This document shows, piece after piece, positions 5,450-30,534 of a stretch of 64,000 bases of DNA. Origin of the DNA: an uncultured Lentisphaerales bacterium (GTDB lineage Bacteria; Verrucomicrobiota; Lentisphaeria; JABSQK01; UBA12247); contig CALSSJ010000017.1 in assembly GCA_943788985.1 (NCBI GenBank), positions 32,001-96,000 on the forward strand, in the 5' to 3' direction. Within the stretch, counting starts at the first letter, position 1. Each line of letters opens with the position of its first letter. Below the pieces are notes generated by a model, which saw only the letters and a program-made list of their open reading frames with translations, searched no databases and had not been told where the DNA came from. The position numbers were made by a program, and so were the translations under genes.

Positions 5450-6019
5450 GTGACGATCTCAGAAACACCTAGAATCAGTCGACTGGATTTTACGCGAGCT
5501 GCCAGCGGGGGAACTGTCGCCACTGCCCTCTGCATCATACTTCTCCTTCTACTTACGTCCTGCGCGACTACAGGAGATCGCAATCCGGGACTAGAAGTCA
5601 GCGTCGAACACATTTCCGCCCCCGAGATTCAATTGTTCGCAAGTCGGGCAACGGTCAGAATCAGAATCGACAACGAAACAGCTGAGCCGGTCACACTTTC
5701 CGGTGGCGTCCATCACATTCGCATCAACGAGCGCCGAATCGGCAAAGCAATGGACAACGCAAACACCGTGATCCAGCCGTTTTCCTCAGTCACTCGACAA
5801 CTTCCCCTGACCCTTAGCAATCTTGGTCTGATTCGCAGCACCCGTGCAACGATCGACCACAAAGAGGTCACCTACCGACTCGACAGCCAGCTCTCGATCA
5901 AGTCGTCGTCTGGTTTCAGAAAGTGCTCCCTGCGCCGCGAAGGCGAAGTCTCGCTGGATGAACTGATTCCAGCCCAGTCAACCGCACCCGGCTTAACACC
6001 GGTACTGATCACGCCTTAG
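5450..6019 (+). CDS. LEA_2/WHy-like lipoprotein
   Basis: Hydrophobic stretch ending LTSC; IRIDNET..PVTLSG...I.IN...IGK pattern typical of LEA_2; start uncertain. Confidence 0.7.
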   Translation: MTISETPRISRLDFTRAASGGTVATALCIILLLLLTSCATTGDRNPGLEVSVEHISAPEIQLFASRATVRIRIDNETAEPVTLSGGVHHIRINERRIGKAMDNANTVIQPFSSVTRQLPLTLSNLGLIRSTRATIDHKEVTYRLDSQLSIKSSSGFRKCSLRREGEVSLDELIPAQSTAPGLTPVLITP

Positions 6020-6160
6020 CCACGCTGGGAGCCTTCTTGGTAGGCGCACCCGTCTGCTCACTGGCGGTGGTCGGGGGCGGTATCCGTTTCCGGTGGTCCG
6101 AGTATCCGAAAATCCTCTAATGGGTGGGGCGTTCTGCAGAATCCGCGTAGGTGAGAGCTG

Positions 6161-6176
6161 TGGCATGAATTCTGCA
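6161..6176 (+). promoter_or_regulatory. Sigma-54 (-24/-12) promoter for the rnf/PFOR operon
   Basis: TGGCATGAATTCTGCA = GG-N10-GC, ~90 bp upstream of the rnfB ATG. Confidence 0.65.
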
Positions 6177-6268
6177 TGGGGATGGCATGAGACCATCTAT
6201 TGACATGAAAGGCGCGGCCGACCTGAGCGCCCCGTACGGCCAGTCAAACTGGCAAGTTGCCTGAACTC

Positions 6269-7186
6269 ATGCTGGACCTCGCAACATTCGTTGGCAGCGC
6301 GGTTCTCTTCATGGGAGCACTTGGCGCGGCACTTGCTGCGGTTCTTGCAATTGCCAACAAGAAGCTGCATGTGGCGGACGATCCCCGCATCGAACAGGTC
6401 GATGAGTTGCTACCGCAAACCAACTGCGGCGCCTGTGGCAGCCCCGGTTGCCGCGCATTCGCCGAAGCCTGCGTCGATGGGGAGAAGAATCCCGGCCAGT
6501 GCACAGTCAACAGCAAAGACATGGCGGCTTTCATTGCGGAGATACTGGGCGTGGAACTCGGTCAGCAGGAGCGTCAAGTGGCCCGTCTGGCGTGTGCTGG
6601 AGGCAATCACGTCTCGCGCATGCGTGCCCGTTACAAGGGAGTTGAGAGCTGTCGCGCAGCGGTCGTCACCGGCGGTGGCGGAAAGTCCTGCGCCTGGGGC
6701 TGTTTAGGATTGGGAGATTGCGAGCGATCATGCGACTTCGGTGCCATCTATATGGATGAGCACGGACTGCCGGTCGTGATCGAGGAGAAATGCGTCGCCT
6801 GCAACGACTGCATCCTCGCCTGTCCGCTCCACCTTTTTTCACTGCAACCGGTCAGCCGCAAATTATGGGTCGCCTGCAAGAGCCTGGCGGAAGGTGACGA
6901 TGCCCTCGCCGACTGTGAAGTTGCCTGCACCGGATGCGCACGCTGCGTCGCCGATGCACCGGAAGGGCTGATCAGTATCCGGGAAAACCTGGCCGTCATT
7001 GATTATACGAGAAACCAAATGGCCACACCACTGCCGACGCAGCGTTGCCCAACGGGCGCGATCGTCTGGCAGGAAAAGCAGAAAGTTGTTAAAGGGATGG
7101 CAGCAAAGCGCATCATCCGCAACGATCCCCTGCCCCTTGACGCCGACCAGCTTCAGTCACGCAACCAGCGATCTTACTCCGCATGA
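6269..7186 (+). CDS. rnfB: Rnf electron transport complex subunit B (polyferredoxin type)
   Basis: N-terminal TM; LPQTNCGACGSPGC; CLGLGDCERSC, CVACNDCILACP, CTGCARC Fe-S motifs. Confidence 0.93.
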   Translation: MLDLATFVGSAVLFMGALGAALAAVLAIANKKLHVADDPRIEQVDELLPQTNCGACGSPGCRAFAEACVDGEKNPGQCTVNSKDMAAFIAEILGVELGQQERQVARLACAGGNHVSRMRARYKGVESCRAAVVTGGGGKSCAWGCLGLGDCERSCDFGAIYMDEHGLPVVIEEKCVACNDCILACPLHLFSLQPVSRKLWVACKSLAEGDDALADCEVACTGCARCVADAPEGLISIRENLAVIDYTRNQMATPLPTQRCPTGAIVWQEKQKVVKGMAAKRIIRNDPLPLDADQLQSRNQRSYSA

Positions 7187-7206
7187 GCCCAAAGGAGAGA
7201 GCCCAA

Positions 7207-10200
7207 ATGGCTTCTAAAAACAAGAATCCAAAATACCCAGGAATTCCCGTTGCAATGGACGGAAATTCAGCTGTGATCATGTGTGAACGGGAGTCCAGTG
7301 ATGCGGCTGGTTCGTATCCTATTACCCCCTCAACCCAGATGGGGGAGTATTGGGCAGAAGAAACTGCCAAGGGACACATCAACACTGCGGGGCGGCCTCT
7401 GATCTTTGTCGAGCCCGAAGGTGAGCACGCCGCTGCAGGCGTCACCGCCGGCATGTCGATGAGCGGTCTGCGCGCCTCAAACTTTTCGTCAGGTCAGGGC
7501 ATTGCCTACATGCATGAGTCGCTCTATGCGGCGGTTGGCAAGCGCTTGCCCTACATCCTTAACATCGGTTGTCGCGCCATCACCAAGAGCACGCTCAATG
7601 TGCACGCCGGGCACGACGATTATCATCTAATGGATGACACCGGTTTCATCCAGACAATGGCCAAGAACGCGCAGGAAGCAGCGGACCTCAACCTGATCAC
7701 CCGCAAGATCGCCGAGCTGTCATTGACGCCCGGCGCGGTCGGCCAGGACGGCTTCCTGACCACACACCTCATCGAGACGCTCAAGGTTCCGGAGCGCGAG
7801 CTAATCGCGGAGTTCCTCGGGTTGGCGGAAGACATTATCGACACCCCAACGCCCGGCCAGGAACTCCTCTATGGCAAGACCCGGCGCCGCGTGCCCAAAC
7901 TCTGGGATGTCGATAATCCCGTGCTGTCCGGTCCGGTGCAGAACCAGGACGCCTATATGCAATCCGTGGCTGGCCAGCGCCCATACTTCTTCGACCATGT
8001 CCGCGAAATCACCGACCAATGCATGGCCGAATACGCCGCACTGACCGGACGCAGCTACACTCGCGTCGCCACCTACAATTGTGACGATGCCGAATACATC
8101 GTGCTCGGCCAAGGCAGCTTGAACGGAACAGCCGAGGCCGTTGCCGACTACCTGCGTGAATCGCGTGGGCTCAAGGTCGGTGTTGTCAACATGACCATGT
8201 TTCGCCCCTTCCCAAGCGACCTTATTGGCAAGATTCTCAAGGGCCGCAAGGGCGTGGTTGTGCTCGAGCGGACCGACCAGCCGCTTGCCAGCGATCTGCC
8301 TCTGATCCGCGAAATCCGCGCCACTCTGACAAAGTGCTTGGAGAACGGCTTCGAAAAGTGCGCCCTCCCCTATCCAGATCTCGCAACCTACAACACTGTC
8401 CAGGACATGCCGCCGCTGTATTCAGGCTGCTTCGGGCTCGGGAGCCGCGACCTTCAGCCGGAAGGCGTTGTCGGTGCCATCGAGAACATGCTTGACGGCG
8501 GCGCCAAGAAAAAGTTCTTCTACTTGTCGATCGACTTCATTCGCAGTAAGCCATCGACTCCGAAGGCCAATATCTACCAGCAGGAGATTAAGGATCGCTA
8601 CCCGACCGTGAAGGCGCTTGCGGTCAAGGGAAGTGAGAATCCGAACCTGCTGCCCCAAGGCGCGATCACAGTGCGCATGCACTCCGTCGGGGGCTGGGGG
8701 GCCATCACCACAGGGAAGAACCTTGCGATCACGCTCTATGAGCTACTTGGCTACGACATCAAGGCGAATCCTAAATATGGGTCTGAAAAGAAGGGCCAGC
8801 CAACCACTTATTACCTCTCGGCCGCACCCGAACCCATTCGCATCAATTGCGAGTATTACTTTGTCGATGCGGTGCTCTCCCCGGATCCGAACGTTTTCAG
8901 TCACTCGAATCCTGTCTTTGGCTTGAAACAGGGCGGTACGTTCATCATCCAGAGCGACCGCGAAACCGCGGAAGCCGTCTGGGAATCAATCCCTGAAAAG
9001 GGCCGAAAATACATTATTGCCAACGAGATCCGCGTCTTTTTCCTCGACGCGTTCAAGATCGCCCGGGAAGAAGCAACCGATCCCGAACTGCAGTTCCGCA
9101 TGCAGGGCATCGCCTTCCAGGGCGCATTCTTTGCAGGTTCCACACTCATGAAGACGTCAGGTCTCACCGAAGCATCCCTGTTCGAGGCCATTCATCAACA
9201 GATCGAGAAGAAGTTCGGCTCCAAGGGCGCACGCGTCGTCGAGGACAACATTCGCGTCGTGCGTCGTGGCTTCGACGAAGTCACCGAGATCGTGGACAAG
9301 CCCGACGTAGCTGCGGCCCAAACCGGCATCCGCAAGGAAACCAACCTGCCGATGATGCTCAAACGCATCCCCGCCAGCGACGATCCCAAGACGGATATCC
9401 ATCGCTACTGGGAACAAACCGGAAGCTTGTACGCCAGCGGAAAACCCAACGACAACCTTGCGGACCCGTTCAACGCGCTTGCCTTGATCCCGGCCAGTAC
9501 CGGCGTCTTCCGCGACATGACGGTAATTCGCTTCAGTCACCCCGTCTGGGATCCCGAAAAATGCACGGCTTGCAGTGAATGCTTCACCGTCTGCCCGGAC
9601 AGTGCAATTCCGGGATTGGTCAACAGCGTCAGCGATGTCTTCCAGGCAACCATCAAGCGTATTAAAAAACAAGGCCACGACGTCAAACTACTCCCCAAGG
9701 CACTACGCACTGTCGAAAACAAGATGCGGGACAACATCGGCGACTGGGACACGAACTCAATTGACACGGGTCCATTGCTTGACAGTGCCATCAGGCAGAC
9801 GATTGCCGAAGCCAACGGCGAGGCCAAGGCGCTCGAAGAAGAGTTTGGCTGGTTCCGCGATGCAATGGCCGACTTCAAGTTCACCCTGACCAAGCCCTAC
9901 TGGGCACAACGCGAAAAGTCCCAGCCCGGCAGCGGTGGGCTCTTCGCCATCACCGTCAACCCGTACACCTGTAAGGGCTGTATGCTGTGTGTAGATGTCT
10001 GTGACGACGACGCGCTGACGGTTGTCCAGCAAACTGAGGAAACAACAAAGACACTCAAGAAGGACTGGGACTTCTGGCTCGATCTGCCGAATACCTCACG
10101 CGACTTCATTCGCATCGACGATATCGACGAAAAAGTCGGCGCGCTCGAAACCATGCTGCTCGATAAATCAATCTACAGCTCGATGGTCTGCGGCGACGGT

Positions 10201-12111
10201 GCCTGCACGGGGTGCGGTGAAAAGAGCGTCCTTCACCTCTTCACCAGCACCATCACAGCGCTGATGCAGCCACGTGTGAAGAAGCAGGTGGCGCGAATCG
10301 ATGAACTCATCGCAGCGCTCGAAGGCCGCATCCGTGCCAAGCTGGCTGAATCGGTTGACATCTCAGACCTGCCTGCCGTTGAGGGCGCGATCGCGGAAAG
10401 CAAGGGCCATGACCTGAAGCTCTCGACACTCGCCGAAAAGCTAGATGAGGGCAAGGCCGGCACCCCGATCGACCAGGAATGGCTGCAATGGGTCACCAGG
10501 CTTCTTGCCCAACTGCGCGACCTCAAGTGGCGCTATACCGAAGGCCAGACCAAGAAAGGTCGAGCCGCTCTCGGATTTTTGAACTCTACCGGCTGCAGTT
10601 CGGTCTACGGGTCTAGTTGGCCGTACAATCCCTATCCATTCCCCTGGTCCAACCACCTCTTCCAAGACGCGCCTTCGGTTTCAATGGGCGTCTTCGAAGG
10701 GCACATGCGCGCCATGTCAGACGGCTTTAAGGCCATCCGCATGGCAGAGGCGGAACTGAGCGGCAATGCAAACTTCAAAACGCTCGCAGCCTCCCTCCAG
10801 TATTTCTCATGGCGTGAGTTTAGCGACGACGAGTTCCTGATGTCACCCCCGGTTGTCGCTGTGGGTGGTGACGGGGCCATGTACGACATCGGCTTCCAGA
10901 ACCTCTCGCGAATGCTGATGGCCGGACGCCCGATCAAAGCGCTCGTGCTCGACACCCAGGTCTACTCCAACACCGGTGGCCAGGCGTGCACATCCGGCTT
11001 CACTGGCCAGGTGTCCGACATGGCCCCGTACGGGAAGGCCTGGAAGGGAAAGATGGAAATCCGCAAGGAAATGAGCCTCATCGCCGCGGCACATCGTACC
11101 GCCTTCGTCCTGCAAAGCAGTATCGCCAACCATACACACATGATCGAAGGCTTCATCGACGGGCTCAACTCCCGCCGCCCCGCCATCTTCAATCTCTACA
11201 CAACCTGCCAGCCGGAACACGGAGTGCCGGACGACTCCGCCGCACAGCGCAGTAAAATGGCCCTCGAATCACGCGCTTACCCGATGCTGCGTTTCGATCC
11301 GGATGCTGGCGCAACCTGGGAAGACTGTTTCGATCTCGACGGCAACCCGGACATCGACAACGATTGGCCAACCTACAAGCTCGATTATCTCGACGAGGAA
11401 GGCAACCAGCAGCAAATGGACCTTCCGCTGACATTCGCCGACTTCGCCGTTCAGGAAGGCCGCTTCCGGAAGCACTTCCGCGTCGCCAAGCCAGACACTT
11501 GGAATGACAACATGGTGCCACTGGCCGAGCTTCTCCAACTGGATCCTGATGATCGCGAGGACCAAGTCCCCTACATCTGGGCCGTCGACAAGAAAAACCA
11601 CCTCATCCGCGTCATCGTCGCCGACGAGATCGTTCGCTCGACCGAAGAGCGGCTTGGTTTCTGGCACTTGCTCAAGGGCATCGCCGGACTCAGCGATAAG
11701 GTCGATCCCGAAGAAATCGCGGCACAGGTCCGCAGTGAAACCGCGCAAAAGCTCGCCTCAGGACTCATGTCCATGCTCCAAGGCGACGGGACCTTTACGG
11801 CTTCTCCCCCAGTCGATCCAGCGGCAGCACTGGCGGCCACGCCTTCCGGCAACGGCGCACGTTTTGAATCGGCTTGGATCGACCAGACCGAATGCACCAC
11901 CTGCGACGAATGCACTGCCATCAACCCGAAAATATTCGAATACGACGATGCCAAAAAGGCGTTCGTCAAAGATCCGCGTGGCGGTCCGTTCAAGGATATC
12001 GTCCGCGCCGCGGAGAAGTGCACGGGACGCTGCATTCACCCTGGAACACCTGCCGACCCTAACGAAAAGGGCCTAGAAAAGCTCATCAAACGAGCCGAAA
12101 AGTTCCAATAA
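7207..12111 (+). CDS. por: Pyruvate:ferredoxin (2-oxoacid:acceptor) oxidoreductase, single-chain, with extra C-terminal ferredoxin domain
   Basis: YPITPS, EGEH, FSSGQG, YGSEKKG, CTACSEC..CP, CKGCMLC..C, GACTGCGE, GGDG (TPP site), YSNTGGQ; AAGGAG RBS before ATG 7207. Confidence 0.93.
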   Translation: MASKNKNPKYPGIPVAMDGNSAVIMCERESSDAAGSYPITPSTQMGEYWAEETAKGHINTAGRPLIFVEPEGEHAAAGVTAGMSMSGLRASNFSSGQGIAYMHESLYAAVGKRLPYILNIGCRAITKSTLNVHAGHDDYHLMDDTGFIQTMAKNAQEAADLNLITRKIAELSLTPGAVGQDGFLTTHLIETLKVPERELIAEFLGLAEDIIDTPTPGQELLYGKTRRRVPKLWDVDNPVLSGPVQNQDAYMQSVAGQRPYFFDHVREITDQCMAEYAALTGRSYTRVATYNCDDAEYIVLGQGSLNGTAEAVADYLRESRGLKVGVVNMTMFRPFPSDLIGKILKGRKGVVVLERTDQPLASDLPLIREIRATLTKCLENGFEKCALPYPDLATYNTVQDMPPLYSGCFGLGSRDLQPEGVVGAIENMLDGGAKKKFFYLSIDFIRSKPSTPKANIYQQEIKDRYPTVKALAVKGSENPNLLPQGAITVRMHSVGGWGAITTGKNLAITLYELLGYDIKANPKYGSEKKGQPTTYYLSAAPEPIRINCEYYFVDAVLSPDPNVFSHSNPVFGLKQGGTFIIQSDRETAEAVWESIPEKGRKYIIANEIRVFFLDAFKIAREEATDPELQFRMQGIAFQGAFFAGSTLMKTSGLTEASLFEAIHQQIEKKFGSKGARVVEDNIRVVRRGFDEVTEIVDKPDVAAAQTGIRKETNLPMMLKRIPASDDPKTDIHRYWEQTGSLYASGKPNDNLADPFNALALIPASTGVFRDMTVIRFSHPVWDPEKCTACSECFTVCPDSAIPGLVNSVSDVFQATIKRIKKQGHDVKLLPKALRTVENKMRDNIGDWDTNSIDTGPLLDSAIRQTIAEANGEAKALEEEFGWFRDAMADFKFTLTKPYWAQREKSQPGSGGLFAITVNPYTCKGCMLCVDVCDDDALTVVQQTEETTKTLKKDWDFWLDLPNTSRDFIRIDDIDEKVGALETMLLDKSIYSSMVCGDGACTGCGEKSVLHLFTSTITALMQPRVKKQVARIDELIAALEGRIRAKLAESVDISDLPAVEGAIAESKGHDLKLSTLAEKLDEGKAGTPIDQEWLQWVTRLLAQLRDLKWRYTEGQTKKGRAALGFLNSTGCSSVYGSSWPYNPYPFPWSNHLFQDAPSVSMGVFEGHMRAMSDGFKAIRMAEAELSGNANFKTLAASLQYFSWREFSDDEFLMSPPVVAVGGDGAMYDIGFQNLSRMLMAGRPIKALVLDTQVYSNTGGQACTSGFTGQVSDMAPYGKAWKGKMEIRKEMSLIAAAHRTAFVLQSSIANHTHMIEGFIDGLNSRRPAIFNLYTTCQPEHGVPDDSAAQRSKMALESRAYPMLRFDPDAGATWEDCFDLDGNPDIDNDWPTYKLDYLDEEGNQQQMDLPLTFADFAVQEGRFRKHFRVAKPDTWNDNMVPLAELLQLDPDDREDQVPYIWAVDKKNHLIRVIVADEIVRSTEERLGFWHLLKGIAGLSDKVDPEEIAAQVRSETAQKLASGLMSMLQGDGTFTASPPVDPAAALAATPSGNGARFESAWIDQTECTTCDECTAINPKIFEYDDAKKAFVKDPRGGPFKDIVRAAEKCTGRCIHPGTPADPNEKGLEKLIKRAEKFQ

Positions 12112-13479
12112 ATGGTCTACAGAATGTTTGACTGGCTCAACTTGGCGCTCTGGTCGCGAAAGACCTTTCCTCATGGCATCCACCCGGAAGACAACAAGGG
12201 GTACACTGCGGACAAACCAATTCGCCCCCTGCCCTTTCCACCAGAGCTGATCCTCCCGCTCGCACAGCACACGGGCAAACCCTCTGTGCCGCTGGTACAC
12301 GTCGGGCAGGAAGTGGTCCGTGGAGAACCGATTGCGCGAGCGGACGGCTTTGTTTCGGTGCCGCTACACGCCCCCGCAACAGGCACCATCCGTGCCATCG
12401 AGCTTCGTGCCACAAGCAAAGGCCCGAAGACCCCTTCCATCATCCTGGACGTGTATCCCGGAGACAGTCAGGAAATCTGCTACACAGCCGAGCGGGACGT
12501 CGAGGCGATGTCGCCAGCGGAAATCATTCAGGCGGTGCAGGATAGTGGGCTCGTTGGCCTCGGTGGTGCGGCGTTTCCGACCCATGTGAAGCTCTCGCCA
12601 CCAAAAGAGCACACCGTTCATACCGTGCTGCTCAACGGTTGCGAGTGCGAGCCCTTCCTCACAACGGACCACCGAGTCATGCTCGAACAGGCTCCGGATC
12701 TGGTCAGGGGAACCCAAATTCTGATGAAGGCCCTTGGCGCAAAACAGGGAATCATCGCAGTGGAAGACAACAAACTCGACGCCGCCGCAGCAATTGAAGC
12801 TGCTCTGCCTGCCGACAACTCGGTCAGCGTGCGGGTGGTCCGCACAAAATATCCGCAAGGCGCGGAAAAGATGCTGGCTAAGGCTGTGCTGAACATCGAA
12901 ATTCCCTCGGGCGGCTATCCGTCTTCCGTGGGCCTGGGCATCTTCAATGTCTCCTCGACCGCCCAGCTGGGCAGAGCCCTGCCCCGAACGCAAGGCATCA
13001 TCGAGCGGGTTGTCACCGTTACCGGCCCGGGCATCGACAAGCCCGGAAACTATCTCGTCCCCGTTGGCACGCCGGTGCGCTTCATCCTTGAGAAACTTGG
13101 GTTTCGGGGCGCGGAGCAAACGCTGATCATGGGTGGCCCGATGATGGGCAACACAGTCGCGTCACTCGATGTGCCGATCACGAAAGGCTGCGGCGGTTTT
13201 CTGGTCCTCACGGAAAAGGAACTCAGCACACAAACCTTCGAGAGCGCCTACCCCTGCATCAATTGCGGCCACTGTGTGGAAGCATGTCCCATGATCCTCA
13301 ATCCTTGCGAAATGGGCAAACTCGCGAGCAAGGCGCGCTATGAGGAAATGGCGAGCAAGTACTATCTGAACGACTGCTTTGAATGTGGCTGCTGCAGCTA
13401 TGTCTGCCCGGCTGGCATTCCACTGGTTCAACATTTCCGCATTGCCAAGGCAACCAACAGAGAACAAGCCCCAAAATAG
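12112..13479 (+). CDS. rnfC: Rnf complex subunit C
   Basis: GLVGLGGAAFPTHVK, NGCECEP, KYPQGAEK, GGPMMG, CINCGHCVEACP, CFECGCCSYVCP. Confidence 0.95.
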   Translation: MVYRMFDWLNLALWSRKTFPHGIHPEDNKGYTADKPIRPLPFPPELILPLAQHTGKPSVPLVHVGQEVVRGEPIARADGFVSVPLHAPATGTIRAIELRATSKGPKTPSIILDVYPGDSQEICYTAERDVEAMSPAEIIQAVQDSGLVGLGGAAFPTHVKLSPPKEHTVHTVLLNGCECEPFLTTDHRVMLEQAPDLVRGTQILMKALGAKQGIIAVEDNKLDAAAAIEAALPADNSVSVRVVRTKYPQGAEKMLAKAVLNIEIPSGGYPSSVGLGIFNVSSTAQLGRALPRTQGIIERVVTVTGPGIDKPGNYLVPVGTPVRFILEKLGFRGAEQTLIMGGPMMGNTVASLDVPITKGCGGFLVLTEKELSTQTFESAYPCINCGHCVEACPMILNPCEMGKLASKARYEEMASKYYLNDCFECGCCSYVCPAGIPLVQHFRIAKATNREQAPK

Positions 13480-13513
13480 GGCAACACCCACAGATGAACA
13501 CGGCTCTTTCACG

Positions 13514-14581
13514 ATGACCAACTCCGGAACCCAATCGTCGCCACAGGTGCTGTTGCGCACCTCGCCGCATTTGCGCGATACGCAGCCGGTGGACGTGATT
13601 ATGCGCAATGTGGTGTACGCATTGCTGCCCGTCTGCGCCTTTTCGGTGTGGCAGTTCGGCATCAGCGTCCTCGGGCTTATCATCACCTGCACCGCAAGCT
13701 GTGTGCTCACCGAGCACGTCATCCGCAAGCTGCAGCACAAGCCCACCACGATCACGGACTGGAGCGCGACCATTACCGGCGTCTTACTCGCCCTGACCTT
13801 GCCGCCTGGCTTCCCGTTGTGGATGGCCGTCGTCGCATCTATTTTCGGCATCGCAGTCGGCAAGATGTTCTTTGGCGGTCTCGGCTTTAACGTCATGAAT
13901 CCCGCGCTCATCGGCCGAGCCTTCGCCCAAGCCGCCTTCACAGTCCCCATGACAACTTGGGTGCCCAACAGTGCCCCCAGCCGCTTCACGGAATTCATTC
14001 CGTCCACGCTCACACTGCCCTTCCTGCGCCCCAACTCAATCTCAGAGTGGCTGGCTCAAAATGCGGTCGATGGCTTTTCCGGTGCCACCCCACTGGCCGT
14101 GATGAAGTTTGAGCATGTCCCGGCGGATTCGATCGAACTGCTGCTGGGAACCACCGCCGGTTCAAGCGGCGAAACCGGCGCACTGCTCATCCTGCTATGT
14201 GGCTGCTATCTCATTTTCCGTAACATGATGAACTGGCGAATCACAGCGAGCATCCTGCTCACCGCCGCCCTGTTTTCCGGCATCTGCCACGCCATCAATC
14301 CGGAAATCTACCCCGACCCTCTCTTCACAGTCTGCTCAGGCGGGCTGATGCTTGGTGCCGTCTTCATGGCCACGGACATGGTCGGCTCACCAGTGACACC
14401 CGTTGGCATCTGGATCTACGGCATTCTCATTGGCCTGCTCACGGTGATCATCCGCTTCTGGGGCGGACTGAGCGAGGGCGTCATGTATGCTATTCTCTTA
14501 GGAAACGCTTTCTCCCCGTTGATTAGCTCGGTCACCCAACCCAAGCGCTACGGTGCTCCGCAAAAGGAGGCCGCGAAATGA
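13514..14581 (+). CDS. rnfD: Rnf complex subunit D
   Basis: SPH N-terminus, FGGLGFNVMNPALIGR, FMN-attachment SGATPL, FMATD, EGVMYAILLGN. Confidence 0.95.
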   Translation: MTNSGTQSSPQVLLRTSPHLRDTQPVDVIMRNVVYALLPVCAFSVWQFGISVLGLIITCTASCVLTEHVIRKLQHKPTTITDWSATITGVLLALTLPPGFPLWMAVVASIFGIAVGKMFFGGLGFNVMNPALIGRAFAQAAFTVPMTTWVPNSAPSRFTEFIPSTLTLPFLRPNSISEWLAQNAVDGFSGATPLAVMKFEHVPADSIELLLGTTAGSSGETGALLILLCGCYLIFRNMMNWRITASILLTAALFSGICHAINPEIYPDPLFTVCSGGLMLGAVFMATDMVGSPVTPVGIWIYGILIGLLTVIIRFWGGLSEGVMYAILLGNAFSPLISSVTQPKRYGAPQKEAAK

Positions 14582-15252
14582 CTGAGACTGCCCCAGTCCC
14601 AACCGCCTCCCCGAGCAGTCTTCGCTTGATTGCGACGCTTGCCGGCATAGCCATCATGTCAGGCCTGCTTGTCGCCCTGGCAGCTGAATTCACCAGAGAA
14701 CCGATCCTGAAAAACCGGAGGGAAGCGCTCGAAAAGGCCGTCTTCACCGTGCTACCCGAGGCCACAGCACGCAAGAACTTCTTGCTGAATGAATCTGGCC
14801 TCGCCCCGCTCGGCGATGATGCCATCTCAGAAGCCAACTGCTATGCCGGTTACAATGAATCCGGCGAGCTGGTTGGCGTCGCCATCGAGGCCTCCGCGCG
14901 CGGCTACCAGGACGTCGTAAAAATCCTTTATGGCTACAACCCACACACAAACTGCATCCTTGGCTTCACCGTTCTCCAAAGCTCGGAGACACCAGGCCTG
15001 GGCGATCGGGTTGAAACCGATCCTGATTTTCTGGCCAACTTCGCTTGCCTGGAGGCAACCCTAAACGAAGCTGGCACGGATCTCAAGAACCAAATCGTCA
15101 CAGTCAAAAACGGAACCAAGAAACATCCCTGGCAGATCGATGCCATCTCAGGTGCCACCGTGACATCCACCGCCATCGGCACCGCCCTGCAAAAAAGCAC
15201 AACCAAACTGCTGCCACTCATTCACAAAGTTGAACCGGAGTTTGCGCAATGA
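14578..15252 (+). CDS. rnfG: Rnf complex subunit G (FMN-binding)
   Basis: N-terminal TM, GYQD, ETPGLG, DAISGATVTS. Confidence 0.92.
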   Translation: MTETAPVPTASPSSLRLIATLAGIAIMSGLLVALAAEFTREPILKNRREALEKAVFTVLPEATARKNFLLNESGLAPLGDDAISEANCYAGYNESGELVGVAIEASARGYQDVVKILYGYNPHTNCILGFTVLQSSETPGLGDRVETDPDFLANFACLEATLNEAGTDLKNQIVTVKNGTKKHPWQIDAISGATVTSTAIGTALQKSTTKLLPLIHKVEPEFAQ

Positions 15253-15902
15253 AAGATCCACGGATTCCGGATCCACTCAGTTGGAGCGTATTCACGCAAG
15301 GCATCTGGCGCGACAATCCGGTATTTGTCATGTTGCTCGGCCTTTGTCCCTTACTTGCCGTCACCAACACCGCAATGAACGCTCTGGCTATGGGCCTGGC
15401 GACAACCTTCGTCCTAGTCTGCTCTGGCACCCTCGTTTCTCTGCTGCAGCGTGTCATCCCCAAGCAAGTGCGAATCGCCGCCTACATCATCATTATCGCC
15501 ACCTTCGTCACCATCGTCGACTACGCGATTCAGGCCATCAGCCTCGACCTCCATAAGGCCCTTGGCGCGTTCATTCAGCTCATCGTAGTCAACTGCGTCA
15601 TCCTTGGCCGTGCCGAAGCCTATGCCTCGAAGAATCCCGTGGTCAATGCCATCGTCAACGCTTTCGGCATGGGGGTGGGCTTTACCCTCGCCTTGCTCAG
15701 CTTGGGAATCGTCCGGGAAATCATCGGGAGCGGCTCACTCTTTGGCATCGATCTATTCGGAGCGCAGTTCCAGCCCTGGGCCGTGTTCGTGCTCCCGCCC
15801 GGTGGCTTCTTTGTCCTGGCCTTCTGGCTGTTCGTCTTCTCCCTGATGCGCAAGCGCAAAGAAACCCGCGCCAAACAAGAGGAGGTGGCCCGTGCAGCCT
15901 GA
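15249..15902 (+). CDS. rnfE: Rnf complex subunit E
   Basis: NPVFVMLLGLCPLLAVT, LIVVNCVILGRAE, LPPGGF. Confidence 0.95.
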   Translation: MKDPRIPDPLSWSVFTQGIWRDNPVFVMLLGLCPLLAVTNTAMNALAMGLATTFVLVCSGTLVSLLQRVIPKQVRIAAYIIIIATFVTIVDYAIQAISLDLHKALGAFIQLIVVNCVILGRAEAYASKNPVVNAIVNAFGMGVGFTLALLSLGIVREIIGSGSLFGIDLFGAQFQPWAVFVLPPGGFFVLAFWLFVFSLMRKRKETRAKQEEVARAA

Positions 15903-16473
15903 TTCACTCACGTTCATTTTCCTGAACGCTTTCGTCATCAACAACTTCGTGCTCGCGATGTTCCTCGGGCTCTGTCCCTTCCTTGGGGTCTCCGGGAAGA
16001 TCAAGACAGCCGCAAACATGGGACTGGCTGTCGTCTTTGTGATGCTCGTCAGCTCCAGCTCTGCCTATGGCATCAACCTACTCCTCGCGAAGTTCAACCT
16101 CGAGTTTCTGCGCTTGATCTGCTACATCGCTGTCATTGCCTCCGCGGTGCAGCTCGTAGAAATGGCGATCAAAAAATTCAGCCCGGCGCTGTTTCGGGCA
16201 CTCGGCATCTTTCTACCGCTGATCACGACCAACTGCGCGATTCTTGGCCTAGCCCTGTTCCAAACCAATCGCGAGTACAACTTTCCCCAGAGCCTGGCAT
16301 TCAGCGTTGGTGCTGGTGCGGGCTTTACCCTGGCGCTTGTGCTGATGGCCGGGCTACGTGAGAAGCTTGAACTGGCCGACGTTCCCGATGTCGTCACCAG
16401 CGCCGCCCTTGCGCTCACGCTCGGCGGCCTGCTCTCGCTCGCCTTTATGGGCTTTGCCGGTCTAGGAGGCTAA
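15892..16473 (+). CDS. rnfA: Rnf complex subunit A
   Basis: NNFVLAMFLGLCPFLGVS, LGIFLPLITTNCAILG, SLAFMGF. Confidence 0.95.
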   Translation: MQPDSLTFIFLNAFVINNFVLAMFLGLCPFLGVSGKIKTAANMGLAVVFVMLVSSSSAYGINLLLAKFNLEFLRLICYIAVIASAVQLVEMAIKKFSPALFRALGIFLPLITTNCAILGLALFQTNREYNFPQSLAFSVGAGAGFTLALVLMAGLREKLELADVPDVVTSAALALTLGGLLSLAFMGFAGLGG

Positions 16474-16474
16474 A

Positions 16475-16720
16475 ATGACCTACGCCATCTCCATTCTGAT
16501 TGTCTTCGCCATGCTTGCCGGGTGGGTGCTCGTCCAGCACTTGGGGCGTCGCTTTGCCGCGCGACATCCCGAATTTGGCCCGCCGCGCGAGGAAGGTTCC
16601 GGTTGCTGCATGGGGCGCGGCAAGGAAGAACGCCAAGGGCCACAATGTGCCGCGTGTCCCAAACAGCTTTCAGCAAAAGGTCAAACACCAATCGCATCCA
16701 ATGGAGAGGTATCCAGATGA
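16475..16720 (+). CDS. Small membrane-anchored Cys-rich protein (81 aa)
   Basis: GGAGG RBS; starts 1 nt after rnfA stop; ATGA overlap with next gene; N-terminal TM then GCC and CAAC. Confidence 0.7.
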   Translation: MTYAISILIVFAMLAGWVLVQHLGRRFAARHPEFGPPREEGSGCCMGRGKEERQGPQCAACPKQLSAKGQTPIASNGEVSR

Positions 16721-17578
16721 ATCTCAGTGAATACAACACCGACCGTATTTTCACCGCCGATGTCGTAAGCTCCGAACGCATCACCGATGAGGCAACAGCC
16801 GAAGTCCGTCACATTGTGCTGCGCATTGTCGACCCTGCCTTCCAGTTTATCGAGGGGCAGAGCATCGCCGTACTCGTCCCCGGTCCCCACCCCTTTGGCA
16901 ACGACTGCCATATCCGGCTCTATTCCATCGCCAGCCCACGAGACGGCGAGGCCGGAAATTTTGCCCAATTCTCTCTCTGCGTGCGCCGTTGCAGCTACAT
17001 CGACGACGTCAGCGGCGAACGCTACCCGGGCATCGCCTCCAACTTTCTGTGTGACCGCCAGCCCGGTGACCAGATCGAGGTTTCCGGTCCCTACGGACGC
17101 CAGTTCCATCCACCACGCGACACCACCAAGAATGTCCTCATGATTGGCGTCGGCACCGGCATCGCCCCCTTCCGGGCGTTCATGAAGTTCCTCTACCGCG
17201 AACAAACAAAGTGGCAGGGAAAAGTGCGCTTGTTCTACGGCGGCAAGAGCGGCATGGACATGCTCTACATGAACGACAAGAACAGCGACATCGCCAACTA
17301 CTACGACAAAGAAACCTTCCAAGCCTTCGAGGCTCTCAGCCCTCGCCCGCACTTCGACGAGCCCGCCCAAATCGAGCGAACCATCAAGGAGAACGCCGGT
17401 GAGGTCTGGTCACTCATCGAGGATCCCAACACCTACGTGTACCTCTCCGGTCTGTCGAAACTCGAAGCCAAGCTCGACAAAATCCTAGCCGAGCTCGCCG
17501 GCTCGGAAGAAGCCTGGAAAACCCATAAGCTTTCCCTGCTCAATGACGGTCGCTGGGGCCACGCTCTTCTACGAATAG
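16717..17578 (+). CDS. Ferredoxin-NADP+ reductase family protein (apparent +1 frameshift near 3' end)
   Basis: RLYSIAS, GIASNFLCD, SGPYG, MIGVGTGIAPFR; removing one G from GGGG 17555-17558 gives ...GRWATLFYE* ending at 17578. Confidence 0.88.
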
Positions 17579-17890
17579 AAAAGTTCAGGAAACCTTGGAC
17601 CGTGGCCGGTTCCGGCTATCCGCCATTGCTCGTAGCACGTGCCGGGTTTGTAGTGAGCCTCGTAGCGAAGTGAAGTCGCGTTTCTTTCGGGCGCTCACCG
17701 GAACGCCACTACGCTTCGCCGCAACCCGAAAAGGGTGCCTGATTTTTGCGCATCGCTGGGGGAATGGCCCCTGACAGGTCGAGAGCGAGAAACAAGAGGA
17801 TTGGGAGGGTGCCAGGAGGTTGGACCTGTTGATTGTTCGCCGCGCTTGGATAACACCTCAGAATGCGTTTTACATCATCCAGCGAGACTC

Positions 17891-30524: not shown

Positions 30525-30534
30525 GTGAGTGGGC

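What the first reader, a model, noticed from the sequence alone, without database searches (positions are those of the whole stretch)
6161..17578. Rnf operon with a PFOR gene inserted between rnfB and rnfC and an FNR appended: a candidate pyruvate-to-ion-gradient/NADPH module
Seen: rnfB-por-rnfC-D-G-E-A-orf81-fnr, all co-oriented with overlaps or gaps of about 35 nt or less, after a GG-N10-GC promoter. Established: PFOR reduces ferredoxin; Rnf oxidises it at RnfB to reduce NAD+ while pumping Na+/H+; FNR links ferredoxin to NADP(H); the textbook orders rnfABCDGE and rnfCDGEAB contain no PFOR. Inference: one regulated unit, possibly a physical PFOR-Rnf complex, coupling 2-oxoacid oxidation to energy conservation and NADPH supply, or running in reverse for carboxylation. 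Similar clusters may exist in other genomes; I cannot confirm novelty.
Basis: partly seen in the sequence, partly recalled or inferred. Interest (0 to 1): 0.75.

Follow-up and report, generated by a model that had tools for sequence, protein, structure and literature searches.

The report
Rnf operon with built-in PFOR
A marine bacterium packs into one tight operon the Rnf membrane ion pump, an oversized pyruvate-oxidising enzyme that carries its own ferredoxin on a flexible leash, a tiny cysteine-rich membrane peptide and an NADP reductase; the module is widespread, untested, and probably ties pyruvate/acetyl-CoA chemistry directly to NAD(P)H and membrane energy.

Summary
Nine co-oriented genes, rnfB-por-rnfC-D-G-E-A-orf81-fnr (6269-17578), have junctions of -4, 0, +34, -4, -4, -11, +1 and -4 nt.

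The "PFOR" is 1642 aa, about 470 aa longer than solved PFORs. It keeps the TPP and Fe-S motifs and adds two insertions, a C-terminal extension, an Ala/Gly/Pro-rich linker and a ferredoxin domain.

The layout is conserved. Among the best 80 of at least 595 related genome loci, rnfB lies directly upstream in 63 of 71 assessable loci, rnfCDGEA downstream in 47 of 49, and fnr in 35 of 44. PFOR and Rnf trees share the same odd placements. Most carriers respire oxygen: 42 of 48 have a COX1-family oxidase.

One 2014 genome paper mentions the arrangement in a sentence. I found no biochemistry. This scan met the module before on other DNA.

The sigma-54-like site is not conserved. The assembled fnr has one extra G near its end.

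Verdict: an untested variant of known systems, most likely a hard-wired, reversible pyruvate:NAD(P)+ and ion-gradient module.

Novelty: the arrangement was already mentioned in one sentence for the Solemya velum symbiont (PMC4287430).

The parts
6162..6177 (+). sigma-54-like -24/-12 motif TGGCAT-N5-CTGCA (weak candidate promoter)
   Evidence: Read directly. It matches 9 of 11 consensus positions. It is not conserved: 1 of 66 orthologous upstream regions reach 9 of 11, against 4 of 330 control windows. An rpoN homologue exists in the genome but is split over three frames on a short contig.
6269..7186 (+). rnfB: long, polyferredoxin-type RnfB (305 aa) with an N-terminal membrane helix, a PF04060 Fe-S domain and several 4Fe-4S motifs
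   Evidence: Best solved relatives are C. tetanomorphum RnfB 7zc6_B (E 1.2e-46) and A. woodii RnfB 9eri_B (E 8e-46). Nineteen Cys are invariant in 64 sequences (A3).
7183..12111 (+). por: 1642-aa long-form PFOR-like 2-oxoacid:ferredoxin oxidoreductase with a fused ferredoxin
   Evidence: TIGR02176 scores 402.4 bits, below its cut-off of 911.35. The TPP motif GGDG...DTQVYSNTGGQ aligns to 6cin and 1b0p. It is the only PFOR homologue found in the 83.6%-complete genome.
9637..9927 (+). PFOR insertion 1 (aa 819-915), between the two cluster motifs of the ferredoxin-like domain V
   Evidence: It is a gap against 6cin. It has no Pfam match at E up to 1. It is present in all 65 aligned sequences at 93-102 aa, with mean column identity 0.56.
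10246..10578 (+). PFOR insertion 2 (aa 1022-1132), just after the CxxC at the start of domain VI
   Evidence: No Pfam match. Length 106-111 aa in 65 sequences, mean column identity 0.61.
11341..11766 (+). PFOR C-terminal extension (aa 1387-1528), a family-specific domain
   Evidence: No Pfam match. Mean column identity 0.70. A phmmer search of 1.84 billion representatives found 1089 proteins at E up to 0.001 and 578 at E up to 1e-10. Among the listed hits are proteins of about 1640 aa and others of about 850 aa and 1350-1420 aa.
11776..11874 (+). Ala/Gly/Pro-rich flexible linker (aa 1532-1564)
   Evidence: Length is 29-55 aa (median 37) across 65 sequences. A, G and P together make 55% of residues. 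Mean column identity is 0.40, against 0.70 for the whole alignment.
11875..12108 (+). tethered single-cluster ferredoxin domain (aa 1565-1642)
   Evidence: Matches Pfam Fer4_13 and D. africanus ferredoxin I 1dax (E 9.8e-07). Cys1571, Cys1574, Cys1577 and Cys1613 are invariant in 65 of 65 sequences.
12112..13479 (+). rnfC (455 aa), the NAD(H)-side subunit
   Evidence: TIGR01945 scores 486.9 bits. Best solved relative is 7zc6_C, E 2.8e-106.
13514..14581 (+). rnfD (355 aa)
   Evidence: The ATG start at 13514 was read. The SGAT flavinylation motif (GFSGATPLA) was seen.
14578..15252 (+). rnfG (224 aa)
   Evidence: The SGAT motif (DAISGATVTS) was seen.
15249..15902 (+). rnfE (217 aa)
   Evidence: TIGR01948 scores 237.5 bits.
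15892..16473 (+). rnfA (193 aa)
   Evidence: TIGR01943 scores 229.8 bits.
16475..16720 (+). orf81: single-pass membrane peptide with the conserved motif RHPE-x-GP and four Cys; no curated family
   Evidence: A peptide with this motif lies right after rnfA in 32 of 48 assessable loci, and 6 of those 32 lack fnr. There are no Pfam or NCBIfam hits, even at E 10. A PF04400 (NqrM) search of the genome does not hit it.
16717..17578 (+). fnr: plant-type ferredoxin-NAD(P)+ reductase. As assembled the frame runs to 17673 because of one extra G in the run 17554-17558.
   Evidence: 8hfq_m E 2.4e-43; 1sm4 E 4.6e-42. All 35 orthologues checked end ...RW/KW/RY-x-x-x-x-Y plus 0-1 residue. One RNA-library contig (X18) lacks one base at 17555. 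With it removed the frame reads GRWATLFYE-stop at 17578.

Best explanation
This is a self-contained redox module. A catalytically intact, oversized PFOR-type enzyme converts a 2-oxoacid, most likely pyruvate, plus CoA into acyl-CoA plus CO2.

Proposed electron path:
- Electrons pass through the enzyme's three internal 4Fe-4S clusters to its own ferredoxin domain.
- That domain hangs on a 29-55-residue Ala/Gly/Pro-rich tether.
- The tethered ferredoxin delivers electrons to the polyferredoxin subunit RnfB of the co-encoded Rnf complex.
- Rnf reduces NAD+ at RnfC while pumping Na+ or H+.
- Where fnr is present, the ferredoxin also feeds the FNR, which reduces NADP+.

No soluble ferredoxin pool is needed. 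The net effect is a 'pyruvate dehydrogenase' that also conserves the energy between about -500 mV and -320 mV as an ion gradient. All steps are reversible in principle.

In this host I judge the oxidative direction, used under oxygen limitation, somewhat more likely. The host is a marine polysaccharide degrader with an AceE-type PDH E1 gene, an nqrF gene (Na+-NQR) and a haem-copper oxidase.

Shown here: the gene content, the intact cofactor motifs, the fused ferredoxin and linker, conserved synteny, and co-inheritance of por and rnf.

Inferred: docking of the ferredoxin domain on RnfB and FNR, the substrate, the pumped ion, the direction, and any role of the small 4-Cys peptide (perhaps Fe-S assembly or an accessory subunit).
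For: (1) Operon anatomy with 4-nt ATGA-type overlaps or zero gaps at 7 of 8 junctions.

(2) The PFOR keeps its catalytic equipment. GGDG...DTQVYSNTGGQ aligns with the TPP site of 6cin and 1b0p. The cluster cysteines and this motif are invariant in 65 sequences.

(3) The fused ferredoxin resembles D. africanus ferredoxin I. Its four Cys are invariant in 65 of 65 sequences, and the linker is variable, A/G/P-rich and poorly conserved.

(4) Synteny in the best 80 of at least 595 related loci:
- rnfB is directly upstream in 63 of 71 loci; one further locus, L038, scored as a miss only because rnfB overlaps por.
- rnfC lies within 600 nt downstream in 54 of 59.
- rnfCDGEA is complete in 47 of 49.
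- fnr is present in 35 of 44.
- In the 3 loci without an adjacent rnfB, an orthologous rnfB (62-64% identity) lies on another contig; all 8 genomes searched had a match.

(5) The PFOR tree and the RnfC+D+E+A tree share the same anomalies. Spirochaetes nest inside Kiritimatiellota. Woeseiaceae and Lysobacterales sit with the Bacteroidota/Calditrichota group. The window pairs with L020.

(6) One locus (L071) carries a second, classical rnfABCDGE next door at 28-44% identity, so the PFOR-linked Rnf is a distinct paralogue.

(7) Rnf looks functional. All six subunits are present, RnfD and RnfG carry SGAT motifs, and ApbE is in the genome.

(8) Host context:
- This is the only Rnf and the only PFOR homologue found in the genome.
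- AceE, COX1 and nqrF are present.
- No PFL, [FeFe] hydrogenase or nifH was found in this 83.6%-complete genome.
- Of 48 carrier genomes, 42 have a COX1-family oxidase and 30 have AceE.

(9) Contigs from RNA libraries of two studies match the cluster at 99% or more and bridge rnfB/por, rnfC/rnfD, rnfE/rnfA and rnfA/orf81/fnr. This is weak evidence; see the Against line.
Against: - No experiment exists for any member of this module.
- Neither a fold nor a complex prediction could be run, so docking of the ferredoxin domain on RnfB is pure inference.
- The PFOR scores far below the NCBIfam equivalog cut-off (402 against 911), so pyruvate specificity is unproven.
- The RNA-library contigs cover the flanking genes and the intergenic leader at the same low depth (about 2-8), so DNA carry-over is not excluded. 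Contigs also cannot show a single transcript.
- fnr is missing from 9 of 44 loci. As assembled in this window it has lost the conserved C-terminal Tyr.
- The host already has a PDH E1, so the module is not needed for aerobic pyruvate oxidation. PFORs are usually oxygen-sensitive, yet 42 of 48 hosts carry haem-copper oxidases. That sits as well with a reductive or anaplerotic role as with an oxidative one.
- The candidate sigma-54 promoter is not conserved.
Confidence: 0.6

Rival explanations
1. The parts are the same but the working direction is reversed. Rnf uses NADH plus the ion gradient, and FNR uses NADPH, to reduce the tethered ferredoxin. The ferredoxin then drives the PFOR as a pyruvate synthase (acetyl-CoA + CO2 to pyruvate). 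This would serve acetate or storage-polymer assimilation, or anaplerosis, in oxygen-respiring bacteria.
For: - Most carriers are oxygen respirers that already have PDH (42 of 48 with COX1, 30 of 48 with AceE; own genome).
- Many carriers are sulfur-oxidising Gammaproteobacteria by record title.
- Rnf is known to run in reverse to supply nitrogenase (passage in PMC12174285).
- PFOR was proposed as a heterotrophic carboxylase during PHA mobilisation in the Kentron symbionts (passages in PMC6593406).
- Earlier scan notes report ppsA next to the module in other genomes (e1-958397, e1-5168873). I did not check this here.
Against: - This host is a sulfatase- and glycosidase-rich heterotroph. Such an organism generates pyruvate from sugars.
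- No PEP synthase lies next to the operon here.
- Anaerobe-labelled carriers without a COX1-family oxidase also have the module: 3 Spirochaetaceae, 1 Kiritimatiellae, 1 PVC-group and 1 Hydrogenedentota genome. There the oxidative direction is the textbook one.
- Nothing in the sequence fixes a direction.
Confidence: 0.3
2. The genes are only co-regulated and there is no dedicated wiring. PFOR, Rnf and FNR share an operon because all use ferredoxin. Electrons travel through a soluble ferredoxin pool. The C-terminal ferredoxin domain is merely an extra internal cluster of the PFOR.
For:
- In 3 of 71 loci rnfB lies elsewhere in the genome, and in 4 Bacteroidota loci it follows fnr. Strict adjacency of rnfB and por is therefore dispensable.
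Against: - In every locus with enough flank the long PFOR sits next to rnf genes.
- A 29-55-residue flexible tether plus a complete ferredoxin fold is what a shuttle looks like, not a fixed relay.
- por and rnf share their gene-tree anomalies.
- The PFOR-linked Rnf is a separate paralogue where two Rnf operons coexist (L071).
Confidence: 0.12
3. The enzyme is not a pyruvate enzyme. It acts on another 2-oxoacid (2-oxoglutarate, branched-chain or aromatic 2-oxoacids, or oxalate-like substrates), and the module couples that substrate to Rnf.
For: - The score lies below the equivalog cut-off for pyruvate:ferredoxin oxidoreductase (402.4 against 911.35).
- Identity to solved PFORs is only about 30%, and two family-specific insertions are present.
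- NCBI names relatives only as '2-oxoacid:acceptor oxidoreductase family protein'.
Against: - The best family and the best solved matches are all pyruvate enzymes (TIGR02176, 6cin, 1b0p, PorA).
- It is the only PFOR-family gene found in the genome.
- The YPITPS and DTxVYSNTGGQ stretches align with pyruvate enzymes. That these stretches are substrate-relevant is recalled, not tested here.
Confidence: 0.15

Closest known systems
rnf2 operon (rnfB2-PFOR-rnfC2DGEA) of the Solemya velum gill symbiont (Dmytrenko et al. 2014, PMC4287430; passages read)
   Same: A PFOR gene lies between rnfB and rnfC of an rnfBCDGEA-order operon. The authors made the same inference, that pyruvate may feed that Rnf.
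   Different: In the passages I read it is a single sentence. They do not mention the enzyme's size, its insertions, a fused ferredoxin, the small Cys peptide, an FNR, or how widely the layout occurs. I could not fetch that genome, so I did not verify that its PFOR belongs to the long-form family.
Clostridial/acetogen-type Rnf complex (C. tetanomorphum 7ZC6, A. woodii 9ERI)
   Same: All six subunits are present. RnfB is the long polyferredoxin type (E 1.2e-46 and 8e-46). RnfC matches at E 2.8e-106. RnfD and RnfG carry SGAT flavinylation motifs.
   Different: Those operons have the order rnfCDGEAB and take electrons from soluble ferredoxin. They contain no oxidoreductase, Cys peptide or FNR. 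Here the hosts are mostly oxygen respirers.
Single-chain homodimeric PFOR (Moorella thermoacetica 6CIN, 1171 aa; Desulfovibrio africanus 1B0P, 1231 aa; NifJ/TIGR02176)
   Same: The domain order I-II-III-IV-V-VI, the TPP motif and the Cys ligands for three 4Fe-4S clusters are shared.
   Different: It is 1642 aa. It has an insertion of about 80 extra residues in domain V, an insertion of about 100 extra residues at the start of domain VI, a C-terminal extension of about 140 aa, a flexible linker and a ferredoxin domain. It scores below the equivalog cut-off. A 2026 review of PFOR diversity describes no such form in its section on subunit and domain composition (PMC13768988, section read whole).
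Pyruvate:NADP+ oxidoreductase of Euglena and Cryptosporidium (PFOR fused to an NADPH-cytochrome P450 reductase-like domain); recalled, not looked up here
   Same: The idea is the same: a PFOR hard-wired to a pyridine-nucleotide reductase, so that no free ferredoxin is needed.
   Different: There the fusion partner is a flavoprotein and no ion pump is involved. Here the fused part is a ferredoxin, and the reductases (Rnf, FNR) are separate operon products.
KorAB / 'dead PFOR' / Rnf operons noted earlier in this scan (e1-1152470, e1-358599, e1-2074748, e1-3825355)
   Same: Giant PFOR-like genes lie between rnfB and rnfC, and one paralogue has a tethered ferredoxin. The C-terminal extension of this window's PFOR also occurs in proteins of about 850 and 1350-1420 aa.
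   Different: Those notes describe paralogues that have lost their catalytic ligands and travel with KorAB. This PFOR keeps the TPP and cluster motifs, and no korAB lies beside it.
NqrM (PF04400), maturation factor of Na+-NQR, as a comparison for orf81
   Same: Both are small single-pass membrane proteins with a Cys cluster, encoded at the end of an operon for an Rnf/Nqr-type pump. NqrM's role is taken from a passage in PMC12174285.
   Different: orf81 does not match PF04400, even at E 10, and a PF04400 search of the genome does not hit it. Its conserved motif (RHPE-x-GP...C-x(1-4)-C-x-C-x(3-6)-C) defines a family of its own.

Membership tests
Rnf complex (RnfABCDGE) | All six subunits are encoded | tested here: met
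   RnfC (TIGR01945, 486.9 bits), RnfD (295.1), RnfE (237.5) and RnfA (229.8) pass their cut-offs. RnfB passes TIGR01944 (99.3 against 68.7). RnfG scores 95.7, just under its cut-off of 102, but has the FMN_bind domain.
Rnf complex (RnfABCDGE) | Covalent-FMN attachment motif (SGAT) in RnfD and RnfG, and a flavin transferase ApbE in the genome | tested here: met
   GFSGATPLA in RnfD and DAISGATVTS in RnfG. The motif itself is recalled from the literature. ApbE is found at two places in the genome.
Rnf complex (RnfABCDGE) | RnfB with a membrane anchor, a PF04060 Fe-S domain and ferredoxin-like domains; RnfC with a NuoF-like FMN domain and 2x[4Fe-4S] | tested here: met
Rnf complex (RnfABCDGE) | Ferredoxin:NAD+ oxidoreductase activity coupled to Na+/H+ translocation | not testable with these tools
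   Needs biochemistry.
Single-chain PFOR (NifJ/Por, TIGR02176) | Domain order I-II-III-IV-V-VI in one chain | tested here: met
   Pfam POR_N 40-276, PFOR_II 303-384, POR 503-698, Fer4 about 786-810 and TPP_enzyme_C 1223-1335. The protein aligns to 6cin over residues 24-818, 916-1021 and 1217-1386.
Single-chain PFOR (NifJ/Por, TIGR02176) | TPP/Mg-binding motif GDG...N(T)GGQ and Cys ligands of three 4Fe-4S clusters | tested here: met
   The motif aligns with 6cin and 1b0p. The following are invariant in 65 sequences: Cys794, 797, 800, 804, 930, 933, 936, 940, 1008, 1011, 1138, 1342 and the GGDG/DT..YSNTGGQ columns. Which Cys binds which cluster is inferred from recalled structures.
Single-chain PFOR (NifJ/Por, TIGR02176) | Score above the curated equivalog cut-off | tested here: not met
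   402.4 bits against a cut-off of 911.35. I therefore file it as a distinct long-form subfamily, not as a NifJ equivalog.
Single-chain PFOR (NifJ/Por, TIGR02176) | Pyruvate as substrate | not testable with these tools
   Only similarity ranking is available.
Plant-type ferredoxin-NADP+ reductase | FAD-binding RLYSIAS-type motif and NAD(P)-binding GTGIAPF motif | tested here: met
   IRLYSIASP and GVGTGIAPFRAF were read and align to 8hfq_m. The motif names are recalled. NADP versus NAD preference was not determined.
Plant-type ferredoxin-NADP+ reductase | Conserved C-terminal aromatic residue (Tyr) | tested here: inconclusive
   All 35 orthologues checked end in Y or Y plus one residue. The window as assembled reads GRWGHALL... 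and runs on to 17673. An RNA-library contig lacks one base at 17555, which would give GRWATLFYE-stop. This is either an assembly error or a real frameshift.
NqrM (PF04400), for orf81 | Match to the family profile | tested here: not met
   No Pfam hit at E up to 10. A PF04400 search of the whole genome gives only E 0.45 or worse, at other places. The protein atlas gives only unnamed clusters (best score 0.88) and a sub-threshold 'FeoB-associated Cys-rich' look-alike.

The most novel reading that the evidence does not exclude
PFOR and Rnf form a stable membrane-bound supercomplex in which a swinging-arm ferredoxin, built like the lipoyl arm of PDH, shuttles electrons between the PFOR, RnfB and FNR. 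This would be an ion-pumping 'respiratory pyruvate dehydrogenase'. Run backwards, it would be an ion-gradient-driven pyruvate synthase operating in oxygen-respiring bacteria across about ten phyla. That would be an unrecognised energy-conserving or CO2-assimilating step of central metabolism in aerobes, with the small 4-Cys peptide as a new Rnf accessory subunit or assembly factor.
Probability: 0.3. Interest if true: 0.85.

Novelty: new variant of a known kind. Interest (0 to 1): 0.62.

Why it matters
Rnf and PFOR are pillars of anaerobic bioenergetics and are assumed to communicate through a diffusible ferredoxin pool. Here a conserved operon suggests a hard-wired version, with the ferredoxin fused to the PFOR and the PFOR gene placed inside the pump's operon.

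- It occurs mostly in bacteria that respire oxygen and also own a normal pyruvate dehydrogenase.
- If the wiring is real, these cells can harvest, or invest, the roughly 180 mV between ferredoxin and NADH at the pyruvate/acetyl-CoA node. That changes energy and carbon budgets for marine polysaccharide degraders and sulfur oxidisers.
- It would give structural biology a natural donor-Rnf complex.
- It offers synthetic biology a compact, ferredoxin-independent pyruvate:NAD(P)+ or pyruvate-synthase module.
- Cultured carriers exist, so the question is directly testable: Shewanella atlantica, S. canadensis, Thiothrix fructosivorans, Persicobacter psychrovividus, Pelagicoccus mobilis and strain DG1235.

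Tried and rejected
Each retry came after the stated twenty calls. No fold or fold search was done, so the shapes of the two insertions and of the extension are unknown.
- orf81 as NqrM: not supported.
- A riboswitch or other RNA family in the leader 5900-6400: none at E up to 1.
- A terminator after fnr: the consensus scan found no plus-strand site there. Folding 17570-17760 gave z = -0.56, which is unremarkable.
- Sigma-54 promoter: the motif is present but not conserved.
- RNA evidence: the contigs cannot show strand, level or a single transcript, and the flanks are covered equally. I treat expression as not shown. The uncovered bins in single runs carry no meaning.
- Conserved neighbours beyond the module: I scanned 47 of 150 flanking ORFs from 21 of the 80 loci and found none recurrent. 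The exceptions are ApbE directly upstream of rnfB in L021, L023 and L027, and transposases beside L049 and L070.
- Shared flanks between the window and its nearest relatives: none.
- Plasmid carriage: only 2 records match the C-terminal part. One is a 1.07-Mb replicon of Persicobacter psychrovividus with por-rnfCDGEA-fnr-rnfB.
- Host taxonomy from holA: only 4 relatives at E up to 1e-20, so no firm name.
- Biegel et al. 2011 could not be read.

Full report
**1. What is in the window**

ORF listing and profile scans confirm nine co-oriented genes on the plus strand. After refining the starts they are:

| Gene | Coordinates |
|---|---|
| rnfB | 6269-7186 |
| por | 7183-12111 |
| rnfC | 12112-13479 |
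| rnfD | 13514-14581 |
| rnfG | 14578-15252 |
| rnfE | 15249-15902 |
| rnfA | 15892-16473 |
| orf81 | 16475-16720 |
| fnr | from 16717 |

The junctions are -4, 0, +34, -4, -4, -11, +1 and -4 nt, the pattern of a translationally coupled operon. GC content across the cluster (0.57-0.59) is not different from the rest of the window (0.545-0.626).

Upstream lies TGGCATGAATTCTGCA (6162-6177), a 9-of-11 match to the sigma-54 -24/-12 consensus. The genome has an rpoN homologue. However, a match that good occurs upstream of rnfB in only 1 of 66 orthologous loci, against 4 of 330 control windows. I rate the promoter claim as weak. No Rfam family matches the leader.

**2. The 'PFOR' is the unusual part**

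It is 1642 aa. It scores 402 bits on TIGR02176, whose cut-off is 911. Against Moorella PFOR (6cin, 1171 aa) it aligns over residues 24-818, 916-1021, 1133-1170 and 1217-1386. This leaves:

- an insertion within domain V (aa 819-915);
- an insertion just after the first CxxC of domain VI (aa 1022-1132);
- about 250 extra C-terminal residues.

None of the three extra stretches matches Pfam at E up to 1. The last 78 residues match Fer4_13 and Desulfovibrio africanus ferredoxin I (1dax, E 9.8e-07).

I aligned the window with 64 of the 67 loci whose match covers at least 95% of residues 700-1642 (A1). Three loci were left out because their match ends ran past the others. In this alignment the TPP motif, twelve cluster cysteines and the four ferredoxin cysteines are invariant.

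The TPP site aligns residue for residue with 6cin and 1b0p. This is therefore a live enzyme, unlike the 'dead PFOR' paralogues that earlier notes of this scan describe in KorAB-Rnf operons.

Between the extension and the ferredoxin domain lies a linker. It is 29-55 residues long (median 37), 55% Ala+Gly+Pro, and has a mean column identity of 0.40 against 0.70 overall. That is a flexible tether. The resemblance to the Ala/Pro-rich lipoyl-arm linkers of PDH E2 is recalled, not tested.

The C-terminal extension alone finds 1089 representative proteins at E up to 0.001 and 578 at E up to 1e-10. Among the 150 listed hits are proteins of about 1640 aa and also of about 850 and 1350-1420 aa. The extension thus marks a wider superfamily.

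**3. The other parts**

*Rnf.*
- RnfB is the long polyferredoxin type of anaerobes (7zc6_B E 1.2e-46, 9eri_B E 8e-46). Only its first 100 residues match the short Azotobacter RnfB.
- RnfC matches 7zc6_C at E 2.8e-106.
- RnfD and RnfG carry SGAT motifs, and ApbE is present elsewhere in the genome.

*orf81.*
- It is a single-pass membrane peptide with a conserved W..VQ...R.FA.RHPE.GP.REEG segment followed by four Cys.
- It matches no Pfam or NCBIfam model, does not match NqrM, and has only unnamed look-alike clusters in the protein atlas.
- A peptide with this motif follows rnfA in 32 of 48 assessable loci.
- Six of those 32 have no fnr, among them both Shewanella loci. An earlier scan note said the peptide 'always sits between rnfA and a ferredoxin-NADP reductase gene'. 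These six loci tie it to Rnf rather than to FNR.

*FNR.*
- It is plant-type (8hfq_m E 2.4e-43, 1sm4 E 4.6e-42).
- All 35 orthologues checked end ...RW-x-x-x-x-Y plus 0-1 residue (L044, whose fnr lies upstream, was left out).
- The window instead reads GRWGHALL... and runs on to 17673.
- One RNA-library contig (X18) lacks one base at 17555, inside a G run.
- The genome's rpoN is also split over three frames on one small contig, so an assembly indel is the likelier cause.

**4. Conservation**

A word-based search found 3992 related proteins among 8000 candidates scored. All 120 listed are 1464-1679 aa long and 64-100% identical. Those with names are called '2-oxoacid:acceptor oxidoreductase family protein' or 'pyruvate-ferredoxin/flavodoxin oxidoreductase'. 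The labels cover Verrucomicrobia, Kiritimatiellota, Spirochaetes, Chromatiaceae, Beggiatoa, SAR324, Acidobacteria and Latescibacteria.

I examined the best 80 (59-84% identity) by tblastn with the window's nine proteins:

| Feature | Loci with it / assessable |
|---|---|
| rnfB directly upstream | 63 / 71 (L038 is a further case that overlaps por) |
| rnfC within 600 nt downstream | 54 / 59 |
| complete rnfCDGEA | 47 / 49 |
| fnr downstream | 35 / 44 |

- Of the 5 loci without rnfC within 600 nt, 4 have it further downstream or split. One, L091, is fragmentary.
- Four Bacteroidota loci place rnfB after fnr.
- Three loci (L019, L037, L039) have no rnfB within 10 kb, but their genomes hold an orthologous rnfB (62-64% identity) on another contig. 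All 8 genomes searched had a match.
- L071 has a classical rnfABCDGE directly upstream at only 28-44% identity, so the PFOR-linked Rnf is a distinct paralogue.
- The flanks are otherwise unrelated from locus to locus.
- A cultured Persicobacter carries por-rnfCDGEA-fnr-rnfB on a 1.07-Mb replicon.

**5. Inheritance**

FastTree trees were built for the PFOR C-terminal part (65 rows) and for concatenated RnfC+D+E+A. The Rnf tree has 49 rows: the window plus the 48 of 64 loci that have all four pieces. Phylum labels cluster in both trees, and both show the same exceptions with starred support:

- Spirochaetaceae nest inside Kiritimatiellota.
- Woeseiaceae and Lysobacterales group with the Bacteroidota/Calditrichota/Acidobacteria set.
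- A 'Halobacteria' bin falls inside Gammaproteobacteria, which is probably a mis-binned contig.

One row, L056, differs between the trees. The window pairs with an Opitutales-labelled bin, L020, in both trees (PFOR 84%, Rnf 85% identity).

The host's own kin do not carry the module:
- None of 40 relatives of the same order or class has the long form. They have only canonical PFORs of about 1190 aa at about 30% identity.
- The C-terminal 256 aa are found in 9 of 401 genomes of the phylum, the host's own genome included.

The window's LeuA is 63% identical to Lentisphaeria- and Victivallales-labelled proteins. It is only 49-50% identical to LeuA in 5 of the 8 genomes searched, all five Verrucomicrobia/Opitutales-labelled and carrying the most similar clusters. 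The other 3 of the 8, L020's genome among them, gave no match. This suggests, but on one marker does not prove, lateral acquisition of the whole operon.

**6. Host physiology**

The genome is 83.6% complete.

- Found: one PFOR homologue and one Rnf, AceE-type PDH E1, a COX1-family oxidase and nqrF.
- Not found: PFL, [FeFe] hydrogenase and nifH.
- Neighbouring genes are sulfatases, glycosidases and lectin-domain proteins.

I also searched the genomes of the 48 loci used in the Rnf tree, out of the 80 loci. Of these, 42 have a COX1-family gene. The 6 without are three Spirochaetaceae, one Kiritimatiellae, one PVC-group and one Hydrogenedentota genome. Thirty of the 48 have AceE. The module therefore lives mainly in oxygen respirers that also own a PDH.

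**7. Expression**

Four metatranscriptome runs from two studies hold contigs at least 99% identical to the cluster. These contigs bridge:
- rnfB/por (X17 6830-7291, X18 6953-7368);
- rnfC/rnfD (X18 13135-13707);
- rnfE/rnfA (X18 15237-16182);
- rnfA/orf81/fnr (X17 16259-16700, X18 16375-16823).

The flanking genes are covered at the same low depth, and contigs cannot show a transcript. Expression is therefore compatible with the data but not shown.

**8. Mechanism**

The best reading is a hard-wired electron path: PFOR clusters, then the tethered ferredoxin, then RnfB, then Rnf with ion pumping, then NAD+. A side branch runs to FNR and NADP+. The path is reversible.

The operon structure, the fused carrier, the strict PFOR-Rnf linkage and the co-inheritance support the wiring. 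Binding, substrate, ion and direction are inferred. I give the module reading 0.6. Within it I lean to the oxidative direction under oxygen limitation for this sugar-degrading host. The reverse, pyruvate-synthase mode is the main rival at 0.3.

**9. What is in print**

Six full-text searches found one explicit mention, in Dmytrenko et al. [quoted passage not shown]

- A 2025 RNF/NQR review mentions pyruvate only in a fermentation pathway and a reference (passages).
- A 2026 PFOR-diversity review lists one-, two-, four- and five-subunit forms and domains I-VII, but no 1640-aa form or fused ferredoxin (section 3 read whole; term search).
- Papers on Kentron and Endoriftia note PFOR and Rnf side by side without this operon (passages).
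- Biegel et al. 2011 was not held. That rnfBCDGEA is a known order comes second-hand from PMC3534657.
- I read no supplements.

This scan has met the same module on other DNA several times, with the same reading. My work agrees with those notes and adds to them.

**10. Verdict**

This is a real, conserved and biochemically untested variant of known systems. It is not categorically new, since both machines are known and the adjacency has been noted. It has features (fused swinging ferredoxin, family-specific insertions, 4-Cys peptide, aerobic hosts) that a specialist would find worth an experiment.

Noticed in passing
window 17554-17558 (G run in fnr): The assembled fnr has one G more than an RNA-library contig (X18). 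This shifts the frame for the last 8 codons and extends the ORF to 17673. All 35 orthologues checked end ...RW....Y plus 0-1 residue. It is probably an assembly indel, but a real frameshift is possible.
   Followed up: yes
G000:C48:507-1921 (own genome, outside the window): The rpoN (sigma-54) homologue is split over three reading frames within 1.4 kb of a short contig. This hints at indel errors in the assembly, or at a decayed gene.
   Followed up: no
G000:C45:9966-10475 (own genome): A second nqrF-like stretch (202 bits) carries 3 in-frame stop codons. It looks like a fragment or pseudogene beside the intact nqrF on C10.
   Followed up: no
L071:3217-8151: A Chromatiaceae bin has a classical rnfABCDGE operon immediately upstream of the rnfB-por-rnfCDGEA-fnr module, so two Rnf paralogues lie in tandem.
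   Followed up: partly
L067:5002-8982: A Lysobacterales bin has a four-gene split 2-oxoacid oxidoreductase (POR_N/PFOR_II, TPP_C, POR gamma) plus a pyridine-nucleotide-disulphide oxidoreductase-like gene directly upstream of rnfB.
   Followed up: no
L021:8004-9059, L023:8026-9033, L027:8010-9026: An ApbE flavin-transferase gene sits directly upstream of rnfB and is co-oriented with it. Two of the three loci carry Puniceicoccaceae or Oceanipulchritudo labels; the third is 'Verrucomicrobiae bacterium DG1235'. In these loci the maturation enzyme has joined the module.
   Followed up: partly
L062 (contig labelled uncultured Halobacteria archaeon): Its PFOR and Rnf genes nest inside Gammaproteobacteria in both trees, next to L058 or L055. 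The contig is probably mis-binned rather than an archaeal carrier.
   Followed up: partly
window 29436-30689 (holA): The DNA polymerase III delta subunit has only 4 relatives at E up to 1e-20 among 5.8 billion clustered proteins (best 67% and 49% identity). The host lineage is very sparsely sampled.
   Followed up: partly
window 16475-16720 against orthologues: The window's orf81 has the Cys spacing CC-x13-C-x2-C. Most orthologues have C-x(1-4)-C-x-C-x(3-6)-C. The tail may have diverged or may hold another indel.
   Followed up: no
proteins P0190-P0276: The PFOR C-terminal extension also occurs at about residues 540-700 of many proteins of about 850 aa. This is a shorter architecture that I did not examine. 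It may be the tethered-ferredoxin paralogue of the KorAB-Rnf operons.
   Followed up: no
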